64,000 nucleotides of DNA. Origin: Octopus vulgaris. Lineage: Eukaryota. The translations under genes were made by a program, and so were the position numbers. The notes under the pieces are model-generated. The model did no database searches. It was not told where the DNA came from and saw only the letters and a list, made by a program, of their open reading frames with translations. The DNA lies in contig OX597822.1 of the NCBI GenBank assembly GCA_951406725.2, forward strand, positions 107,694,001-107,758,000. Direction: 5' to 3'. Positions 2,958 to 64,000 of this stretch are shown one piece after another; positions within the stretch are counted from its first letter, which is position 1; each line of letters starts with the position of its first letter.

Positions 2958-2958
<1 letters not shown>

Positions 2959-3125
2959 TTAAGTTCACTAAAATTTAGATTCAGATGAATATGTTACTTA
3001 AGTTAAAGGCAACAGAATTTAATATGGTATATCCATATAATTTAAAATAAGGTAATTATAATCAAAATAAGCAACAAGTATATCCTGCATTACCTCTGGA
3101 CATCTTTATTGCTTATTTTGAATAT
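2958..3125 (-). mobile_element. 3' fragment of an HHR-bearing repeat family (same as 48490-48700) with short inverted piece
   Basis: agattcagatgaatatgttacttaagtt...tcaaaataagcaacaagtatatcc matches 48489-48598; 3085-3121 is an inverted copy of part of the same family. Confidence 0.7.
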
Positions 3126-5683: not shown

Positions 5684-5755
<72 letters not shown>

Positions 5756-5993
5756 TAAGGGTAGAAATTGATATTCATCAATTAAGACCAGTGGTCTAGC
5801 ATATTAAAAAAGAATCCGAAGATTAAAATATTTATATATACCAATTAAGGACTGAACACGAAAAGTGGACAGTCAACATGCTAGATATAGACGTCAAATC
5901 GCCCTTCACCACAAAAGATTATGTTCTCAGATCAAACTCAACACAAAACCATAGCAATAAACAAGTGAAAAATATACGAAATAAAATAATTAC

Positions 5994-6058
5994 CCATGTA
6001 CTAACTTAGTTTCAGCTGTTATTTTCCGCAAGGAAAACTGCAGCCATCATCAGCATGG
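5994..6058 (-). ncRNA. Type I hammerhead ribozyme, copy 1
   Basis: Exact reverse complement of 6970-7034. Confidence 0.85.
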
Positions 6059-6516
6059 TCCGTTATAAATGTAATTTGCTGGACTAGATGCAAACACGAT
6101 ACCGAAATATCGCGTGCATGGAGTTCAGCCTATTACATTTGAATATATCTTTCAAATGCCTTTACTTTGGCGCGTTGAAACCCGAGAAAACTAGCCTGCA
6201 GCTAATACTTAGCAGCAGTTAATTTATCGGTTAGAGAACATATTTATTTATATAAAATTAATTAAGGGTAGAAATTGATATTCATCAATTAAGACCAGTG
6301 GTCTAGCATATTAAAAAAGAATCCGAAGATTAAAATATCCGAAGATTAAAATATTTATATATACCAATTAAGGACTGAACACGAAAAGTGGACAGTCAAC
6401 ATGCTAGATATAGACGTCAAATCGCCCTTCACCACAAAAGATTATGTTCTCAGATCAAACTCAACACAAAACCATAGCAATAAACAAGTGAAAAATATAC
6501 GAAATAAAATAATTAC

Positions 6517-6581
6517 CCATGTACTAACTTAGTTTCAGCTGTTATTTTCCGCAAGGAAAACTGCAGCCATCATCAGCATGG
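6517..6581 (-). ncRNA. Type I hammerhead ribozyme, copy 2
   Basis: Exact reverse complement of 6970-7034; 523 nt from copy 1. Confidence 0.85.
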
Positions 6582-6969
6582 TCCGTTATAAATGTAATTT
6601 GCTGGACTAGATGCAAACACGATACCGAAATATCGCGTGCATGGAGTTCAGCCTATTACATTTGAATATATCTTTCAAATGCCTTTACTTTGGCGCGTTG
6701 AAACCCGAGAAAACTAGCCTGCAGCTAATACTTAGCAGCAGTTAATTTATCGGTTAGAGAACATATTTATTTATATAAAATTAAATATGTTCTCTAACCG
6801 ATAAATTAACTGCTGCTAAGTATTAGCTGCAGGCTAGTTTTCTCGGGTTTCAACGCGCCAAAGTAAAGGCATTTGAAAGATATATTCAAATGTAATAGGC
6901 TGAACTCCATGCACGCGATATTTCGGTATCGTGTTTGCATCTAGTCCAGCAAATTACATTTATAACGGA

Positions 6970-7034
6970 CCATGCTGATGATGGCTGCAGTTTTCCTTGC
7001 GGAAAATAACAGCTGAAACTAAGTTAGTACATGG
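6970..7034 (+). ncRNA. Type I hammerhead ribozyme, copy 3 (inverted arm)
   Basis: CCATG-CTGATGA-T-GGCTG(cag TTTTCC ttgc GGAAAA taa)CAGCT-GAA-ACTA agt TAGT-A-CATGG: stem I CCATG/CATGG, intact core, extended stem II, stem III ACTA/TAGT, GUA cleavage triplet (cut after 7029). Confidence 0.87.
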
Positions 7035-7185
7035 GTAATTATTTTATTTCGTATATTTTTCACTTGTTTATTGCTATGGTTTTGTGTTGAGTTTGATCTG
7101 AGAACATAATCTTTTGTGGTGAAGGGCGATTTGACGTCTATATCTAGCATGTTGACTGTCCACTTTTCGTGTTCAGTCATTAATT

Positions 7186-7265
<80 letters not shown>

Positions 7266-7349
7266 GGAAAAAAGCAACAAGAATGGATCAATATATCGGT
7301 ACAATTGTTTCGCACGAGGAAATCTTTAATAAAGCTACAAAAATTGCAG

Positions 7350-7352
<3 letters not shown>
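7266..7352 (-). mobile_element. Fragment of the 62.4-kb HHR repeat family (3' half of ribozyme)
   Basis: aagcaacaagaatggat...gtacaattgtttc...aaaaattgcag aligns with 62555-62635; contains GAA-ACAATTGT-A on minus strand. Confidence 0.7.
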
Positions 7353-18026: not shown

Positions 18027-18680
18027 TTTTGGTGAAACATTGCGAACTGCTGTTTATATCAATTTTATATATACACATTACCGACTTGCTAAATCAACCA
18101 ATTATTTGGACGACGAAAACATAAATACTAATAGCGAAGAAAAATCTGAATGGTCGGGCTGATGAGGCAACGGAAACTGCCGAAACCGACAGAGGTGTTA
18201 ACAATTCACGATTGGTATTTTTCGGATAATTAAGGTCCCGGTTAGTATATAGGTTTTCATTAATGTGTGTTAACCACGGCATTAGAGCTCTTTAGCTCTG
18301 ATTTCTAGCAATGTAGGTGTTTCCTAAAACCCTAGTCACATTTAGTGAGATTTGTAATTCTTTTCGGTGAAACATTGCAATGTGCTGTTTATATTAATTT
18401 TATAAATACATATTAACGAATTCCTAATTCCCATTATTTGGCCGACAAAACCATAAATACTAACGGCGAAGTGAGGAAAGAACCAAAAAATCGAGCGGTC
18501 TTGACTGATGAGGTAATGGAAACTGACGAAACTGACGCATCATTATTAAGAATTCTCGATTGGTACTTTTCGCACGACTATGTGCCCTGTTAGTGTATAT
18601 CTCTAGCAATTTAGGTGTTTCCTAACACCCTAGTCACATTTTGGTGAAACATCGCAAAGTTATGTTTTTATAAATCTACA
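18027..18680 (+). repeat. Diverged ~280-345-bp tandem repeat, each full unit with a hammerhead core
   Basis: ggtgaaacat unit starts at 18031, 18366, 18643; CTGATGA-GGCA acggaaac TGCC-GAAAC at 18159-18186 and degenerate copy at 18505-18532. Confidence 0.75.
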
Positions 18681-37529: not shown

Positions 37530-37627
37530 TTGTGTTTTCTACTATAGCCTCGAGCCGACCAAAGCATTGTGAGTGGATTTAGTAGACCGAAACTGGAAGA
37601 AGCCCGTCGTATATATGCATATATATA
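37530..37627 (+). mobile_element. SINE family A 5' half (split by LINE)
   Basis: tctactatagcctcgagccgaccaaagc...gaagcccgtcgtatata. Confidence 0.85.
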
Positions 37628-39100
37628 CAGAGCAGATGCCAAAAGCTATAGGCCTATCTCTCTGACTTCACACATCAGCAAAGTCATGGAACGGATAGTC
37701 AGAAAGAAACTAATCGCATTCCTTGAGGAAAATAACTTGCTGAGTGATTCCCAGCATGGTTTTCGACCAGGTAGGAGCTGCCTGACCCAGCTCTTACAGC
37801 ATTATGACTGGGTGTTGAGGCAGTTACTCAACACATCAAATGTGGACGTAATCTACCATGATTTTGCAAAAGCTTTTGACAAGGTGGATTATGGTATGAT
37901 ATGACACAAACTACGTGACCTCGGCATACCTGGAAAACGTGGAGTGTGGTTACATGACTTTCTGAAAGATAAGAGTCAGGCAGTAGTAGTTAATGGAGCC
38001 ACCTCTATAAACACACAAATAGTGAGTGGTGTTTCACAGGGCACTGTCTTGGGACCACTGCTTTTTATAGTGGCTCTCCCAGATATGCCTTCAAATGCCC
38101 GGATAGCCACTCTGGCAAGCTATGCAGACGATACGAAAGTCTCGCAGAAAATACAGAACCCCAGCGATGTTGCACACCTGCAGCAGGAGTTGGACTCAAT
38201 CTATAGATGGGCTGAGGATAATAATATGCAGTTTAATGCTGAGAAATTCCAGGCCCTGCGCTACCAGCATGCGAAACTGAATATTAAACTTACGGGATAC
38301 ACCGGTCCACAGGGAATTTCAATCCCAGAGCCTAAGTCTGTGAGGGACCTGGGTATCGACATGAGTGATGATACCTCTTTCCAAGTGCACATTACCAGGA
38401 TGGCGACAAAGTGCAGACGACTGGCTGGGTGGATCCTAAGAATATTCAGAACCAGAGATAAGTAAACCATGATGGTTCTCTGGCGGATATTCGTCCTCAG
38501 CCGCCTGGATTACTGCTCACAGCTATGGTCACCCACCAGTGTAAAATTAACAGCGGACCTTGAAGCAATCCAGAGAAGATTCACAAAGAAGATCGTCTCT
38601 TTGCAACAGCTCAGCTACTGGGAAAGTTTGAAACAGCTAAGACTCTACTCCCTGGAGAGAAGACGGGAGAGGTATGCAGTAATATATGTCTGGAAGATCC
38701 TGGAAGGAATTGTGCCAAATTTTGGCATTGTAAGCTACACCAATGCTAGAACGGGACGACACTGCATAGTGCCAAAGATCCCAGCAATGCCATCACGCTT
38801 CAGGACCAGCTTCTGCAACAACCTGGGTTTTAAGGGCCCACAGCTTTTTAATATTCTCCCAAAGAGTCTGAGGAACTTGCACAAAGTAGATGTAGCGGTT
38901 TTTAAATCAAAGCTGAACATCTTCCTGTCGAGAGTCCCAGATGAACCTACCTCACGGCAAGAGGTGTAAATGAGAGTAGCTATATCAAACTCCATTCTTC
39001 ACCAAGTGCCACATGTGAGAGGAGGTTCTTCGTAATAACAGTGTAGCACAAAACGGCGGTGCATCTGCATGGCCGCAGCTCTTAGCTGAAACGAGAAAAA
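37628..39100 (+). mobile_element. 5'-truncated CR1-group LINE: RT domain, C-terminus, 3' tail
   Basis: One frame with two in-frame stops: YRPISLTS, QHGFRPGRSCLTQLL, DFAKAFDKV, SGVSQGTVLGPLLF, YADD, LDYCSQLWSP, LYSLERRRERY. Confidence 0.95.
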
Positions 39101-39486: not shown

Positions 39487-40540
39487 TATATATATATGCG
39501 TATAAGAAGGGATGACCACTACGTGGACATCCAACATGGTAAAAATAGTTCACCTCGATCTAACCACGAACGAAAATAATGTTCTTTAGAAAAATTTAGC
39601 AAACACCAGAACATAAGCGGGTAAGACAAATGGAATCCAGAGAAACAGTTCTGCAGAGGATAATTTACTACAATGAATATTGCCATTTAGAGAACACAAT
39701 TATTTAATCTTTAATAATGAGGGTGATAAATTGAATATTAATTTAATTAATATCAATTTAAAACCAGTGGCCTAGCATATAGAAAAATATGAAAATTCAC
39801 AAAAAATGTATTATATGCGTATAAGAATGATGACCACTTAGTGGACATCCAATATGCTAGAAATAGATCATCTACGATCAAACCAAAAAGGAAAAGAATG
39901 TTCTCTAGAAAAAATTAGCGCGCCAGAGCTGAGACATTTGAAAATTACTCCAATGTAATCGGTAGAACTCTACACAGATCTCATTTTATGAGGACAATCT
40001 GTGTATAGTTCTGCATGTTATATTGAATTAGAACGGTCGTACTGAAGACCTACTTACCTTGTTACGTAAGTAAAATCGTTAATGGTGAAACTAGTCTACG
40101 ATTAATTTTTTATTTTGTATATTTTCATTTGTCTTACCCGCTTATGTTCTGGTGTTTGCTGAATTTTTCTAGAGAACATTTTCCTTTGTGGGTAGATCGT
40201 AAGTGATCTCTTTCTAGCATAATGGATGTCGATTTAGTGGTCATCTTTTCTTGTACGCTTGTAATACAATTTTTCTGAATTTTCAGATTTTTCTATATGC
40301 TAGACCACTGGTTTTAAATTGATGTTAAATTAGTACTCAATTTATCACCTCCCTTATTTAAATTTCAAATAATTATGTTCACTAACCGGCAATATTCATT
40401 GCAGTAAATTATCTTCTGCAGAACTGTTTCCGGGATTTAGCCTGCCAGAGCTGAGACATTTGAAAATAACCCACTGGTTTTAAATTGATGTTAATTAAAT
40501 TAATATTCAATTTATCACGTCATTATTTAAATTTTAAATA
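39487..40540 (+). mobile_element. Diverged relative of the 5.7-kb HHR element (~522-bp unit, inverted 5' segment)
   Basis: Shares accagtgg.ctagcatat, gtggaca..caa.atgctaga and gagaacat blocks; gccagagctgagacatttgaaaat at 39922 and 40444; 39487-39920 is inverted relative to 40125-40435. Confidence 0.8.
40035..40103 (+). ncRNA. Type I hammerhead ribozyme, slightly degenerate
   Basis: GGTCGTA-CTGAAGA-cc TACTTAC cttgttac GTAAGTA...ggt-GAA-ACTAGT-C-TACGATT; GUC triplet, palindromic stem III; base of stem II imperfect. Confidence 0.7.
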
Positions 40541-48360: not shown

Positions 48361-48900
<540 letters not shown>

Positions 48901-52544: not shown

Positions 52545-53465
52545 AGATAAACTTAGATATGTTTCGACCAAAGATTGGTCCAGGCCATGTCTAACTTAAT
52601 AGCACCACCTGATAGGATTATTCGAATCCTGTTTAAGTCAAGTTTTGTTCAAGTAGTGAGTTCTTGTTGGGTGAGTTGTATCCAGTTTTGTTCAAGTAGT
52701 GAGTTCTTGTTGGGTGAGTTGTATCCAATTATGGGTGGCTTATCTGGTATTCTTTGAAGGAATTTATCCAGACTCTGTTTAAAGTTGATGGGATCCTTTT
52801 CCTCTTTGATCTCTCTCGGGACAATGTTAAATAGGGCAGGGCCTGTTGAGGAAAAGAAATTATGTTGCAGTGTGCATGTATGTTGTGATCTTGAATTGGG
52901 CAGGGGACGTATAGCCCGTGGTCCAAGTCTTGGATGAACCTTGAAGCTAATGTTTAGGTCGTTTGGGCATAGTTGGCGGTATATTTTCCACATCGTACAA
53001 ATGATGTACCGCTCACGGCGACGCTGGAGGGAGTAAAGTTTCAAGGCTTTAAGGCGATCCCAATAATCGAGAGCAGCCATGCCTTCAATTAGTTTAGTGA
53101 GTGCCCTCTGGGGTGACTCAATTCTGGAGATGTTTTGTCTTGTGTGAGGAGACCACAGTGGGCAGCAGTATTCAAGGTGTGGCCGTACAAAGGAAGAAAA
53201 AAGTGGTATGATGACACCTTGTTCTCTGGACCGGAAAGTTCTTAAGATCCAGGAACTCATCCTACGAGCTATATCGACCTTCTTGTTGATGTGTGCACTC
53301 CAACTGAGATCGTCATCAACAATTCCACCCAGGTCTCTGATATTGTTAGAGGCTGTGAGCGGTTCCCCTGAAGGAAGAGAGTATGGCTGTTTTAGTGAGG
53401 AGTTTCTTCCAAAATGCATCAGCTCAAATTTTCCCTCGTTCAGTTGCATTTTGTTTCTGTCTGCC
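52545..53465 (-). mobile_element. 5'-truncated CR1-group LINE 3' end, ORF still open
   Basis: 266-aa ORF: IRDLGGIVD, FVRPHLEYCCPLWSP, LYSLQRRRERY; 43-bp tandem duplication 52641-52726; short-repeat tail (tctaag). Confidence 0.93.
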
Positions 53466-53480
53466 CATACATATATATGA

Positions 53481-53512
<32 letters not shown>

Positions 53513-62390: not shown

Positions 62391-62424
<34 letters not shown>

Positions 62425-62431
<7 letters not shown>

Positions 62432-64000
62432 AGCAATAAAGATTCAATTTAATTTAAATGAATTTACTTGAATATGGTACCTAACTTAGATGCACCAAAA
62501 AAAACTATACTGTTTTAACAATACAGTAATGTGGGGTGATTATAAGCGAGAAAGAAGCAACAAGAATGGATAGGTTTTTAGTACAATCGTTTCATACAAG
62601 GACAGGCTTTATTAAAAGTTGCAAAAATTACAGCATATAAACGTGTCCCGTACTCATCAGCTAAAATACATGTGAGTTCTCTAGACATCCTAGTGGTTGA
62701 GGCTATACTCATGAAGTAATGTAGATAATTAAGTAACATAAACAGATTTCCAAAGTTCATTAAAGTTCTTTAAAGATGATGTACAGTCTTATCACAGAAT
62801 TTTAAAAAAGTTTTAATAGCATCACAGAGAAGGTGACCTAATCCATAGTGCACATATGAATTTCCAGAGATATGAGGAGGGATTACATACTCACAGACGA
62901 CAAATTTATCCATTGTTAATCACAACGAGGTGGCTCTCAATCCCTGCTTATTAGCATTACAGAGAGGGTGAATTAATCCTTTGTATAGATGCACAATTTC
63001 CAATGGTGTAGATGTAAATTTCCAGAGAAATGAAGAGGAATTTCATATTCACAGGCGATAAATTTATCAATGGTTGAACACAATGAGGTAGGTATCAATT
63101 CTTGTTATATGATTAGGTATTTGCCACATTAATCACATTACTGCTATTTACAAGAGGCTGTAGCTATTTAACTTTTAAAGGCTGAAGGGCTTTCTAGAGA
63201 TGCAAAGAACAGAAAAGGGAAGGGAAGAGAAGAAAAGAGAGAAAATAAAGGAGGAGGGAGCAAAAAAAAGGGGGGGACTAAAAGAGAAGAGAAAAGGAAA
63301 AAGAGAATAAGAAGAAGAAAAAGAAAAAAAGAGAAAAGAGAAAGAAATAGGAAAAGAAGGGAAAAAAGAAAAAGAAAAAAAGAGGGTTCTAGTTATACAG
63401 AAGAATTAGTAGACGGCAAGACTGGTTTTAATTTACAGGCATCTAGGAACTAGAGGAGAATATTATTCTTTGACCAGTAAAACAGCCAATTTATTGCTGT
63501 TGAAAGCAGCTATGAATTTAAAGAGAATCTAAAGAGATAACACGGTCAGGGGTTTAGGGGTCAGAGGCTAAAATCAAAAGAAAATACATTAGGAAAATCT
63601 AAGTATAATCTTATCAAAAAGTCATTAAAATTTATTTATTTAATTTATTCATTTTATTGTCTTAAGGAGTTGCCGTTATTATTCATACATTGACGGACTA
63701 CAGGTCAAATCTTAGAAGATCATTTACAAGGTGTTAGGGAATTGTCTATCATAATGAAGATAATCATATTATCACCGAGGGAGTAGCCTTATTTATTTAA
63801 TTTTGAAATAGAATTATGGGGCTTTAGTAACTCATTTTATTTTATTAAAGTTATGCTACTTAAATTAGATTAAGTTAAGAATTAAAAAAATATGTTTATG
63901 TTACTTAATTATCTACATTACTTCATGAGTATAGCCTCAACCACTAGGATGTCTAGAGAACTCACATGTATTTTAGCTGATGAGTACGGGACACGTTTAT
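62425..64000 (-). mobile_element. Non-coding HHR-bearing element with inverted copy running off the window end
   Basis: Abuts (TA)n; perfect 108-bp inverted repeat 62637-62744 / 63893-64000; internal ~75-bp degenerate direct repeat (62859, 63017) and purine tract 63205-63385. Confidence 0.75.
62576..62666 (-). ncRNA. Type I hammerhead ribozyme
   Basis: TTTTAG-CTGATGA-GTACGGGACA...TGTCCTTGTAT-GAA-ACGATTGT-A-CTAAAA: 6-bp stem I, intact core, long stem II, near-palindromic stem III, GUA triplet. 5' half of an inverted copy starts at ~63971. Confidence 0.83.

What the first reader, a model, noticed from the sequence alone, without database searches (positions are those of the whole stretch)
62425..64000. 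Third intact hammerhead family in a >1.4-kb non-coding element with perfect inverted copy
Seen: full type I HHR at 62576-62666, identical inverted arm from 63893, no sizeable ORF between, abuts (TA)n; relatives at 7266, and more distant ones at 2958 and 48490. Inference: a young, longer non-autonomous PLE-dependent element. Arm identity suggests recent insertion; sense orientation inside a putative intron could cleave host pre-mRNA if active.
Basis: partly seen in the sequence, partly recalled or inferred. Interest (0 to 1): 0.72.

Follow-up and report, generated by a model that had tools for sequence, protein, structure and literature searches.

The report
Truncated Penelope retrotransposon with twin hammerheads
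This fold-back repeat is the cut-short, non-coding tail end of a young protein-coding Penelope-type jumping gene plus a mirror-image copy of its tip, a known layout; its predicted self-cutting RNA motif would likely be trapped by the mirror copy and so is unlikely to cut a host transcript.

Summary
The hammerhead motif (minus strand, 62576-62666) and the inverted arm are real. Read beyond the window, the arm is 204 nt, near-identical, and ends in (TA)n. The element is not a separate non-autonomous family. Longer copies run on into a reverse transcriptase + C-terminal GIY-YIG frame, uninterrupted in full-length copies (949 and 957 aa). The window copy stops 246 nt short of the stop codon, so its interior is 3' UTR. 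Motifs, (TA)n targeting and a telomerase-like predicted fold fit the Hydra clade of Penelope-like elements. The inverted 5'-truncated partner and one-sided tail are published. Family-level differences: 4.65-kb unit, 120-nt tail, very long stem II. All 32 two-ended insertions had one long and one short end. Cleavage of host pre-mRNA is unlikely: no host gene was found, and either transcript would make the antisense arm first. Side finding: in full-length copies a strand just after the ribozyme is predicted to pair with the start codon. The scan has reported this architecture on other DNA many times. Ordinary; low interest.

The parts
62393..62425 (.). (TA)n target microsatellite, left flank; a second (TA)n follows the right arm beyond the window (L011:3093-3120). 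No target-site duplication can be resolved in TA repeats.
62426..63887 (-). Long arm: 3' UTR / pseudo-LTR of the Penelope-like element, 5'-truncated 246 nt downstream of the parent's stop codon
   Evidence: maps to L040:7556-8918 at 96.3%, stop ends at L040:7310; longer copies continue into the ORF
62426..62545 (-). Tail of about 120 nt, present on this arm only, between the short end (site A, 62546) and the long end (site B)
62558..62570 (-). 13-nt strand that, in full-length copies, is predicted to pair with the start-codon region about 190 nt downstream; its partner is absent from this truncated copy
62576..62666 (-). Type I hammerhead motif, long branched stem II, self-complementary stem III; predicted cut between 62582 and 62581; activity untested
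62845..63108 (.). Two 78%-identical copies of about 105 nt, 158 nt apart, inside the 3' UTR; shared by other copies of the family
63201..63384 (.). Purine-rich (plus strand) low-complexity tract inside the 3' UTR; part of the element
63888..64000 (+). Short inverted arm joined head-to-head to the long arm through an A-rich junction; continues to L011:3091 (window-equivalent 64090), carries the second hammerhead (core at 63977) and ends at site A without a tail

Best explanation
The element is a 5'-truncated copy of a young, protein-coding Penelope-like retrotransposon, holding only its 3' untranslated end plus a shorter inverted copy of the tip, and it was likely made in one insertion event into a TA repeat. 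Shown: the parent is a unit of about 4.65 kb (short leader, 949-957 aa RT + C-terminal GIY-YIG frame, about 1.7 kb 3' UTR ending in hammerhead and tail), preceded in full-length copies by a tandem copy of its own 3' end; insertions end at two fixed points about 120 nt apart, one at each side. Inferred: the element's protein cut both strands of the (TA)n target, primed two cDNAs on the element RNA, one at each fixed internal site, both stopped early (after about 1460 and 204 nt), and their ends were joined at a short A-rich match. Inferred: both fixed sites lie 3' of the predicted ribozyme cut, so the template was uncut at that ribozyme or was a re-ligated circle; the ribozyme's role is in the parent (trimming the 5' end of its RNA, probably as a dimer or with protein help), not in this stump. 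Inferred: any read-through transcript of this stump would fold into a 200-bp duplex that hides the ribozyme.
For: Longer copies extend the long arm into the ORF (5 of 19 other loci clearly). Uninterrupted frames from ATG in L033 and L040; 7 family copies with open frames of 970-984 aa over the N-terminus and no stop in the match, among 150 scored matches. 42 homologues at E<=0.001, many with PF26215; Atlas neighbours carry PF26215 and RVT_1; model pTM 0.73 with telomerase RTs at Foldseek ranks 1-7. Ends: of 40 loci, 32 showed two outer ends and all 32 were one long + one short; 28 were classed by script and 4 (L022, L028, L029, L050) by eye; 20 of the 32 were picked with a query containing the tail, 12 were picked by the RT region; 8 loci showed one end only. 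Hammerhead pairs covary over 9 sequences from related families: 92% of cells paired, 9 of 21 pairs changed on both sides, stem I 100% paired. Core and stem I intact in 71 of 73 family arms. Literature: inverted 5'-truncated partner and one-sided tail (PMC8557442 passages; PMC3846280 passages); two internal RT start sites and both strands extended in vitro (PMC11167929 parts 1-2 of 4); opposite-strand hammerhead pairs in truncated PLEs and weak dimer-dependent cleavage (PMC4209133 parts 1-2 of 4).
Against: Pfam gave no significant match for the parent protein, so the assignment rests on motifs, homologues and a predicted fold. No tree with named PLE clades was built. The hammerhead's free fold is no better than shuffles (z 0.02) and the unconstrained minimum differs from the catalytic fold. 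The two-primer model is borrowed from a Poseidon-clade element; fold-back self-priming, as proposed in PMC3846280, is not excluded. No empty site was seen.
Confidence: 0.9

Rival explanations
1. A distinct non-autonomous, retrozyme-like or MITE-like element of about 1.6 kb that borrows PLE proteins.
For: No coding sequence in this copy; inverted ends; most copies are short.
Against: 5' ends differ from copy to copy and longer copies enter the ORF; no head-to-tail small units as defined for non-LTR retrozymes (10.64898/2026.07.22.740005, part 1 of 5 read); outer ends are unequal, unlike terminal inverted repeats.
Confidence: 0.04
2. The inverted arm arose by fold-back self-priming or template switching of a single cDNA, not by a second priming event on the other target strand.
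For: Arms within an insertion are more often identical than arms of different insertions (13 of 29 vs 13%); short A-rich match at the junction; self-priming is proposed in PMC3846280.
Against: In loci picked by the RT region the long body ends at either site and the partner always at the other (12 of 12); copying a tail-less first strand cannot supply a tail to the partner.
Confidence: 0.12
3. The ribozyme in this copy cuts a host pre-mRNA and affects a host gene.
For: The core is intact in both arms; family sequence is present in contigs of runs guessed to be RNA.
Against: No host domain among 116 window ORFs scanned (only LINE RT and weak sub-threshold hits); stem III has 2-3 pairs and needs a same-strand partner (duplex -5.8 kcal/mol); in both directions the antisense arm is transcribed first (duplex -353 kcal/mol); a related PLE hammerhead cut only with protein.
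Confidence: 0.04

Closest known systems
Hydra clade of C-terminal EN+ Penelope-like elements (Craig et al. 2021, PMC8557442; passages, section 11, supplement passages and part 2 of 59 read), including Hydra-1_Obim
   Same: Single RT + C-terminal GIY-YIG frame; RWK, DKT, CxCx5C, CxxC and CxH motifs; no CCHH; (TA)n insertion; hammerhead with palindromic stem III in the 3' end.
   Different: Unit about 4.65 kb against <3 kb (2507 bp for Hydra-1_Obim); two Asn-rich inserts; 1.7-kb 3' UTR; about 60 nt between the core halves against loops of 3-10 nt in the listed Hydra hammerheads; tail about 120 nt against 30-40. Compared with Hydra-1_Obim by eye only: same motifs, clearly different sequence.
Poseidon element PAc of Anolis (Frangieh et al. 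2024, PMC11167929; parts 1-2 of 4 read)
   Same: Two internal RT start sites that define the tail, AT-rich targets, both strands extended, hammerhead near the ORF start.
   Different: Different clade; in PAc the start codon lies inside the ribozyme and the RT start sites lie inside the ORF, here ribozyme, both sites and a structured leader lie upstream of the AUG.
Penelope families of Adineta vaga (Arkhipova et al. 2013, PMC3846280; passages read)
   Same: Inverted pLTR, optional tail on one arm, Asn-rich inserts that keep the frame open.
   Different: 31-bp tail; target-site duplications resolvable; clade not Hydra by the authors' description.
Metazoan non-LTR retrozymes (10.64898/2026.07.22.740005, part 1 of 5 read; PMC7229834 seen as search listing only)
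   Same: Type I hammerhead, link to PLE pLTRs.
   Different: Those are small protein-free tandem units; this is the end of a coding element, with two ribozymes on opposite strands.

Membership tests
EN+ Penelope-like element | Single ORF with telomerase-related RT and GIY-YIG endonuclease | tested here: met
   In parent copies L033/L040; telomerase RTs top the fold search. Absent from the window copy by truncation.
EN+ Penelope-like element | Partial tandem pLTR in front of full-length copies | tested here: met
   L031, L032, L033, L038, L040
EN+ Penelope-like element | Inverted 5'-truncated partner and one-sided tail | tested here: met
   32 of 32 two-ended insertions among 40 loci; tail longer than published
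EN+ Penelope-like element | Hammerhead motif in the pLTR | tested here: met
Hydra clade | RWK, DKT, CxCx5C linker, CxxC and CxH, C-terminal EN | tested here: met
   positions 37, 124, 818, 915, 945 of the 957-aa frame against the list
Hydra clade | CCHH motif absent from the endonuclease core | tested here: met
   one cysteine (841) between the two halves of the GIY-YIG core; judged from the sequence, no reference alignment
Hydra clade | (TA)n insertion | tested here: met
   outer ends followed by TA repeats
Hydra clade | Length generally <3 kb (descriptive) | tested here: not met
   about 4.65 kb; the excess is Asn-rich inserts and 3' UTR
Hydra clade | RT phylogeny groups with named Hydra elements | not tested
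Naiad clade | N-terminal endonuclease, no canonical hammerhead | tested here: not met
   EN is C-terminal and a hammerhead is present
Non-LTR retrozyme | Protein-free head-to-tail units each with a hammerhead | tested here: not met
Active hammerhead ribozyme | Self-cleavage | not testable with these tools
   core and covariation only

The most novel reading that the evidence does not exclude
In this lineage the RNA between ribozyme and start codon is a conserved folded domain, closed by a 12-13-bp helix that buries the AUG, and it is the dock that places the enzyme's two start sites (both fall in predicted unpaired linkers, the short end 10-13 nt after the helix strand) while switching the RNA between translation and copying. 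Support: start-codon duplex beyond shuffles in 8 of 13 loci tested, with a different sequence in a family at about 42% protein identity; pair probabilities near 1; 97.8% of helix cells paired, one pair changed on both sides. Against: 5 of 13 loci not significant, few compensatory changes, rows partly chosen by start-context pattern, A-to-G changes are common anyway.
Probability: 0.3. Interest if true: 0.55.

Novelty: new member of a known kind. Interest (0 to 1): 0.25.

Why it matters
As a locus it matters little: it is one of many stumps of a known class of retrotransposon. The family is useful as material. It has several uninterrupted full-length copies, two sharply defined insertion ends that always pair one-with-the-other, a long-armed hammerhead that Rfam misses, and a predicted leader fold over the start codon. 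That makes it a candidate for testing how Penelope-like elements form inverted insertions, a step the read papers call unresolved. The 200-bp perfect fold-back would be a double-stranded RNA substrate if transcribed (inference).

Tried and rejected
Rfam: no hammerhead match at either threshold. Pfam on the parent protein: nothing significant. Six-frame search of the interior for PLE coding remnants: none. Host gene: 116 window ORFs of 62 aa or more, low-complexity ones filtered out, gave only LINE RT and three sub-threshold hits; short exons would be missed, so the intron question is open. Expression: no RNA holder listed; contigs of four runs guessed to be RNA cover the pLTR-ORF junction without any joint, so no intron in the leader was seen; contigs cannot show strand, level or cleavage. 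Presence/absence: contigs of four runs hold the family but no listed piece bridged the arm junction or an empty site; uninformative. Selenocysteine idea: the in-frame TGA of L021 is TGG (Trp) in L033 and L040, so it is a private stop; rejected. Chimeric arms in L029: the short arm is the same family with deletions; rejected. Naiad: rejected on domain order. A pattern search for a full-length copy of the 48490 family found 5 matches, none a pLTR-ORF junction. Start-codon helix not significant in L109 (23/300), L140 (216/300), L153 (224/300), L150 (188/300), L151 (170/300); for alignment A3, 14 of 17 candidate loci were used: L094 failed the start-context pattern (it breaks the terminal pair), L127 (interrupted leader) and L111 (no ATG) were left out. 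Motifs at 18159 and 18505 have core and stem II but failed the descriptor. Literature: no description of the start-codon helix or of this family in searches (listings; passages of PMC13725137); the library lacks most subscription papers and Repbase, and only 1 of 59 parts plus search hits of the Craig supplement were seen; bioRxiv supplements are closed.

Full report
Observation. The minus strand at 62576-62666 holds a complete type I hammerhead motif; a strict descriptor gives 4 hits in the window and 0.02 per shuffled window. Rfam misses it. The inverted arm is real. The neighbouring genome stretch (L011; window = L011 + 60999) completes it: it runs to L011:3091, carries a second full hammerhead on the plus strand and ends in (TA)n. 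The arms differ at 3 of 209 aligned columns. There is no sizeable frame and no remnant of the element's protein between the arms. The named relatives are related beyond chance but are fragments or have a mutated core.

What it is. The first 321 nt have 1680 genome candidates; 40 of 40 scored are 99-100% identical. In 19 other loci the long arm stops at different points, and in L017, L019, L021, L025 and L030 it continues past the window copy's end into a GIY-YIG and RT frame. A search with the RT region gave 300 candidates; among 20 fetched loci, L033 and L040 have uninterrupted frames of 949 and 957 aa from ATG, preceded by a tandem copy of the element's own 3' end. Seven copies show open frames of 970-984 aa over the N-terminus. 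The window arm maps to L040:7556-8918, starting 246 nt after the stop codon. The unit is about 4.65 kb. The genome is probably an octopus: inferred from a source name on a 70%-identical protein and from earlier scan notes, not shown.

Protein. Pfam finds nothing, but 42 homologues exist, Atlas neighbours carry PF26215 and RVT_1, and the model (pTM 0.73, two disordered Asn-rich inserts) matches telomerase RTs best. The motifs listed for the Hydra clade in PMC8557442 section 11 are all present and CCHH is absent. The family is not Hydra-1_Obim (2507 bp, different sequence by eye). No tree was built.

Insertion anatomy. Ends fall at two fixed points about 120 nt apart. Of 40 loci, 32 show two outer ends, always one long and one short; 20 were picked with a tail-containing query, 12 without such bias; 4 were classed by eye; 8 loci show one end. 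The inverted partner and one-sided tail are published, and two internal start sites with extension on both strands were shown in vitro for PAc. I infer two priming events on one RNA, early stops, and a join at a short A-rich match. Both ends lie 3' of the predicted cut at 62582/62581, so the template was uncut there or circular.

Ribozyme. Across 9 sequences of related families stem I is fully paired with 3 of 4 pairs changed on both sides; whole structure 92% paired, above all 500 shuffles and all slid controls (related rows, not independent events). Stem II spans about 60 nt, against loops of 3-10 nt in published Hydra hammerheads. Stem III is self-complementary, the dimer design described in PMC4209133, where activity was low. 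The free fold is not better than shuffles. In this stump the two motifs are on opposite strands, and in either direction the antisense arm comes first and would form a -353 kcal/mol duplex against -11.6 for the catalytic fold. No host gene was found. Cleavage of host RNA is therefore unlikely, though untested.

Age. The long arm is a median 96.3% (93.4-98.8%) identical to other copies in 29 alignments; core and stem I are intact in 71 of 73 arms. The family is young; polymorphism of this locus could not be tested.

Side finding. In full-length copies a 13-nt strand just after the ribozyme is complementary to the start-codon region. The duplex beat dinucleotide shuffles (at most 1 of 300) in 8 of 13 loci, which amount to two independent sequence solutions, this lineage and a family at about 42% protein identity; 5 of 13 were not significant. 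RNAalifold predicts the same helix as the closure of a multibranch leader, with a second 9-bp helix that has a compensatory change. Rows were partly chosen by start-context pattern and 3 of 17 were left out. I found no description in searches. The partner strand is absent from the window copy.

Earlier scan notes report the same layout, long stem II and Hydra affinity on other DNA; one gave me the lead to check Hydra. They are not counted as support.

Verdict. Real, ordinary, a new family member of a known kind. Interest 0.25.

Noticed in passing
window 5740-7190: A different repeat with three identical intact hammerhead motifs (6053-, 6576-, 6975+): a 523-nt tandem unit plus an inverted arm between TA repeats; looks like a small protein-free PLE-type or retrozyme-like family.
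   Followed up: partly
window 40030-40120 (+): Candidate hammerhead with core, 6-bp stem I and palindromic stem III but only 2 proximal stem II pairs; failed the strict descriptor.
   Followed up: partly
window 18159 and 18505 (+): Two related units about 346 nt apart with CUGAUGA, short stem II and GAAA but no recognisable stems I/III under my descriptor.
   Followed up: partly
window 7266-7352, 2958-3120, 48490-48660: Fragments of two sister PLE families (910 and 1544 genome candidates for the first and last); intact members elsewhere carry hammerheads with covarying stems.
   Followed up: yes
L138, L139, L140, L141, L145-L147: At least three further families with long uninterrupted RT + GIY-YIG frames (836-1072 aa, 42-75% identical to this one) in the same genome.
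   Followed up: partly
L011:3121-3330: Another high-copy repeat begins right after the right-hand TA tract; also seen next to TA tracts at other loci.
   Followed up: no
L011:3092 and short ends of other copies: The short end is often followed by a G before (TA)n where the element itself continues with T; possibly a non-templated base.
   Followed up: partly
P0038: A database protein named as an ankyrin-repeat protein starts with about 200 aa that are 70% identical to this element's N-terminus; gene-model artefact or exonised PLE.
   Followed up: no
window 37548-38966 (+) and 52652-53512 (-): Decayed LINE-type reverse transcriptase fragments (Pfam RVT_1 for the first).
   Followed up: partly
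L018:6276-6802: One copy has a 158-167-nt piece of the 3' UTR repeated twice at the junction between its arms.
   Followed up: no
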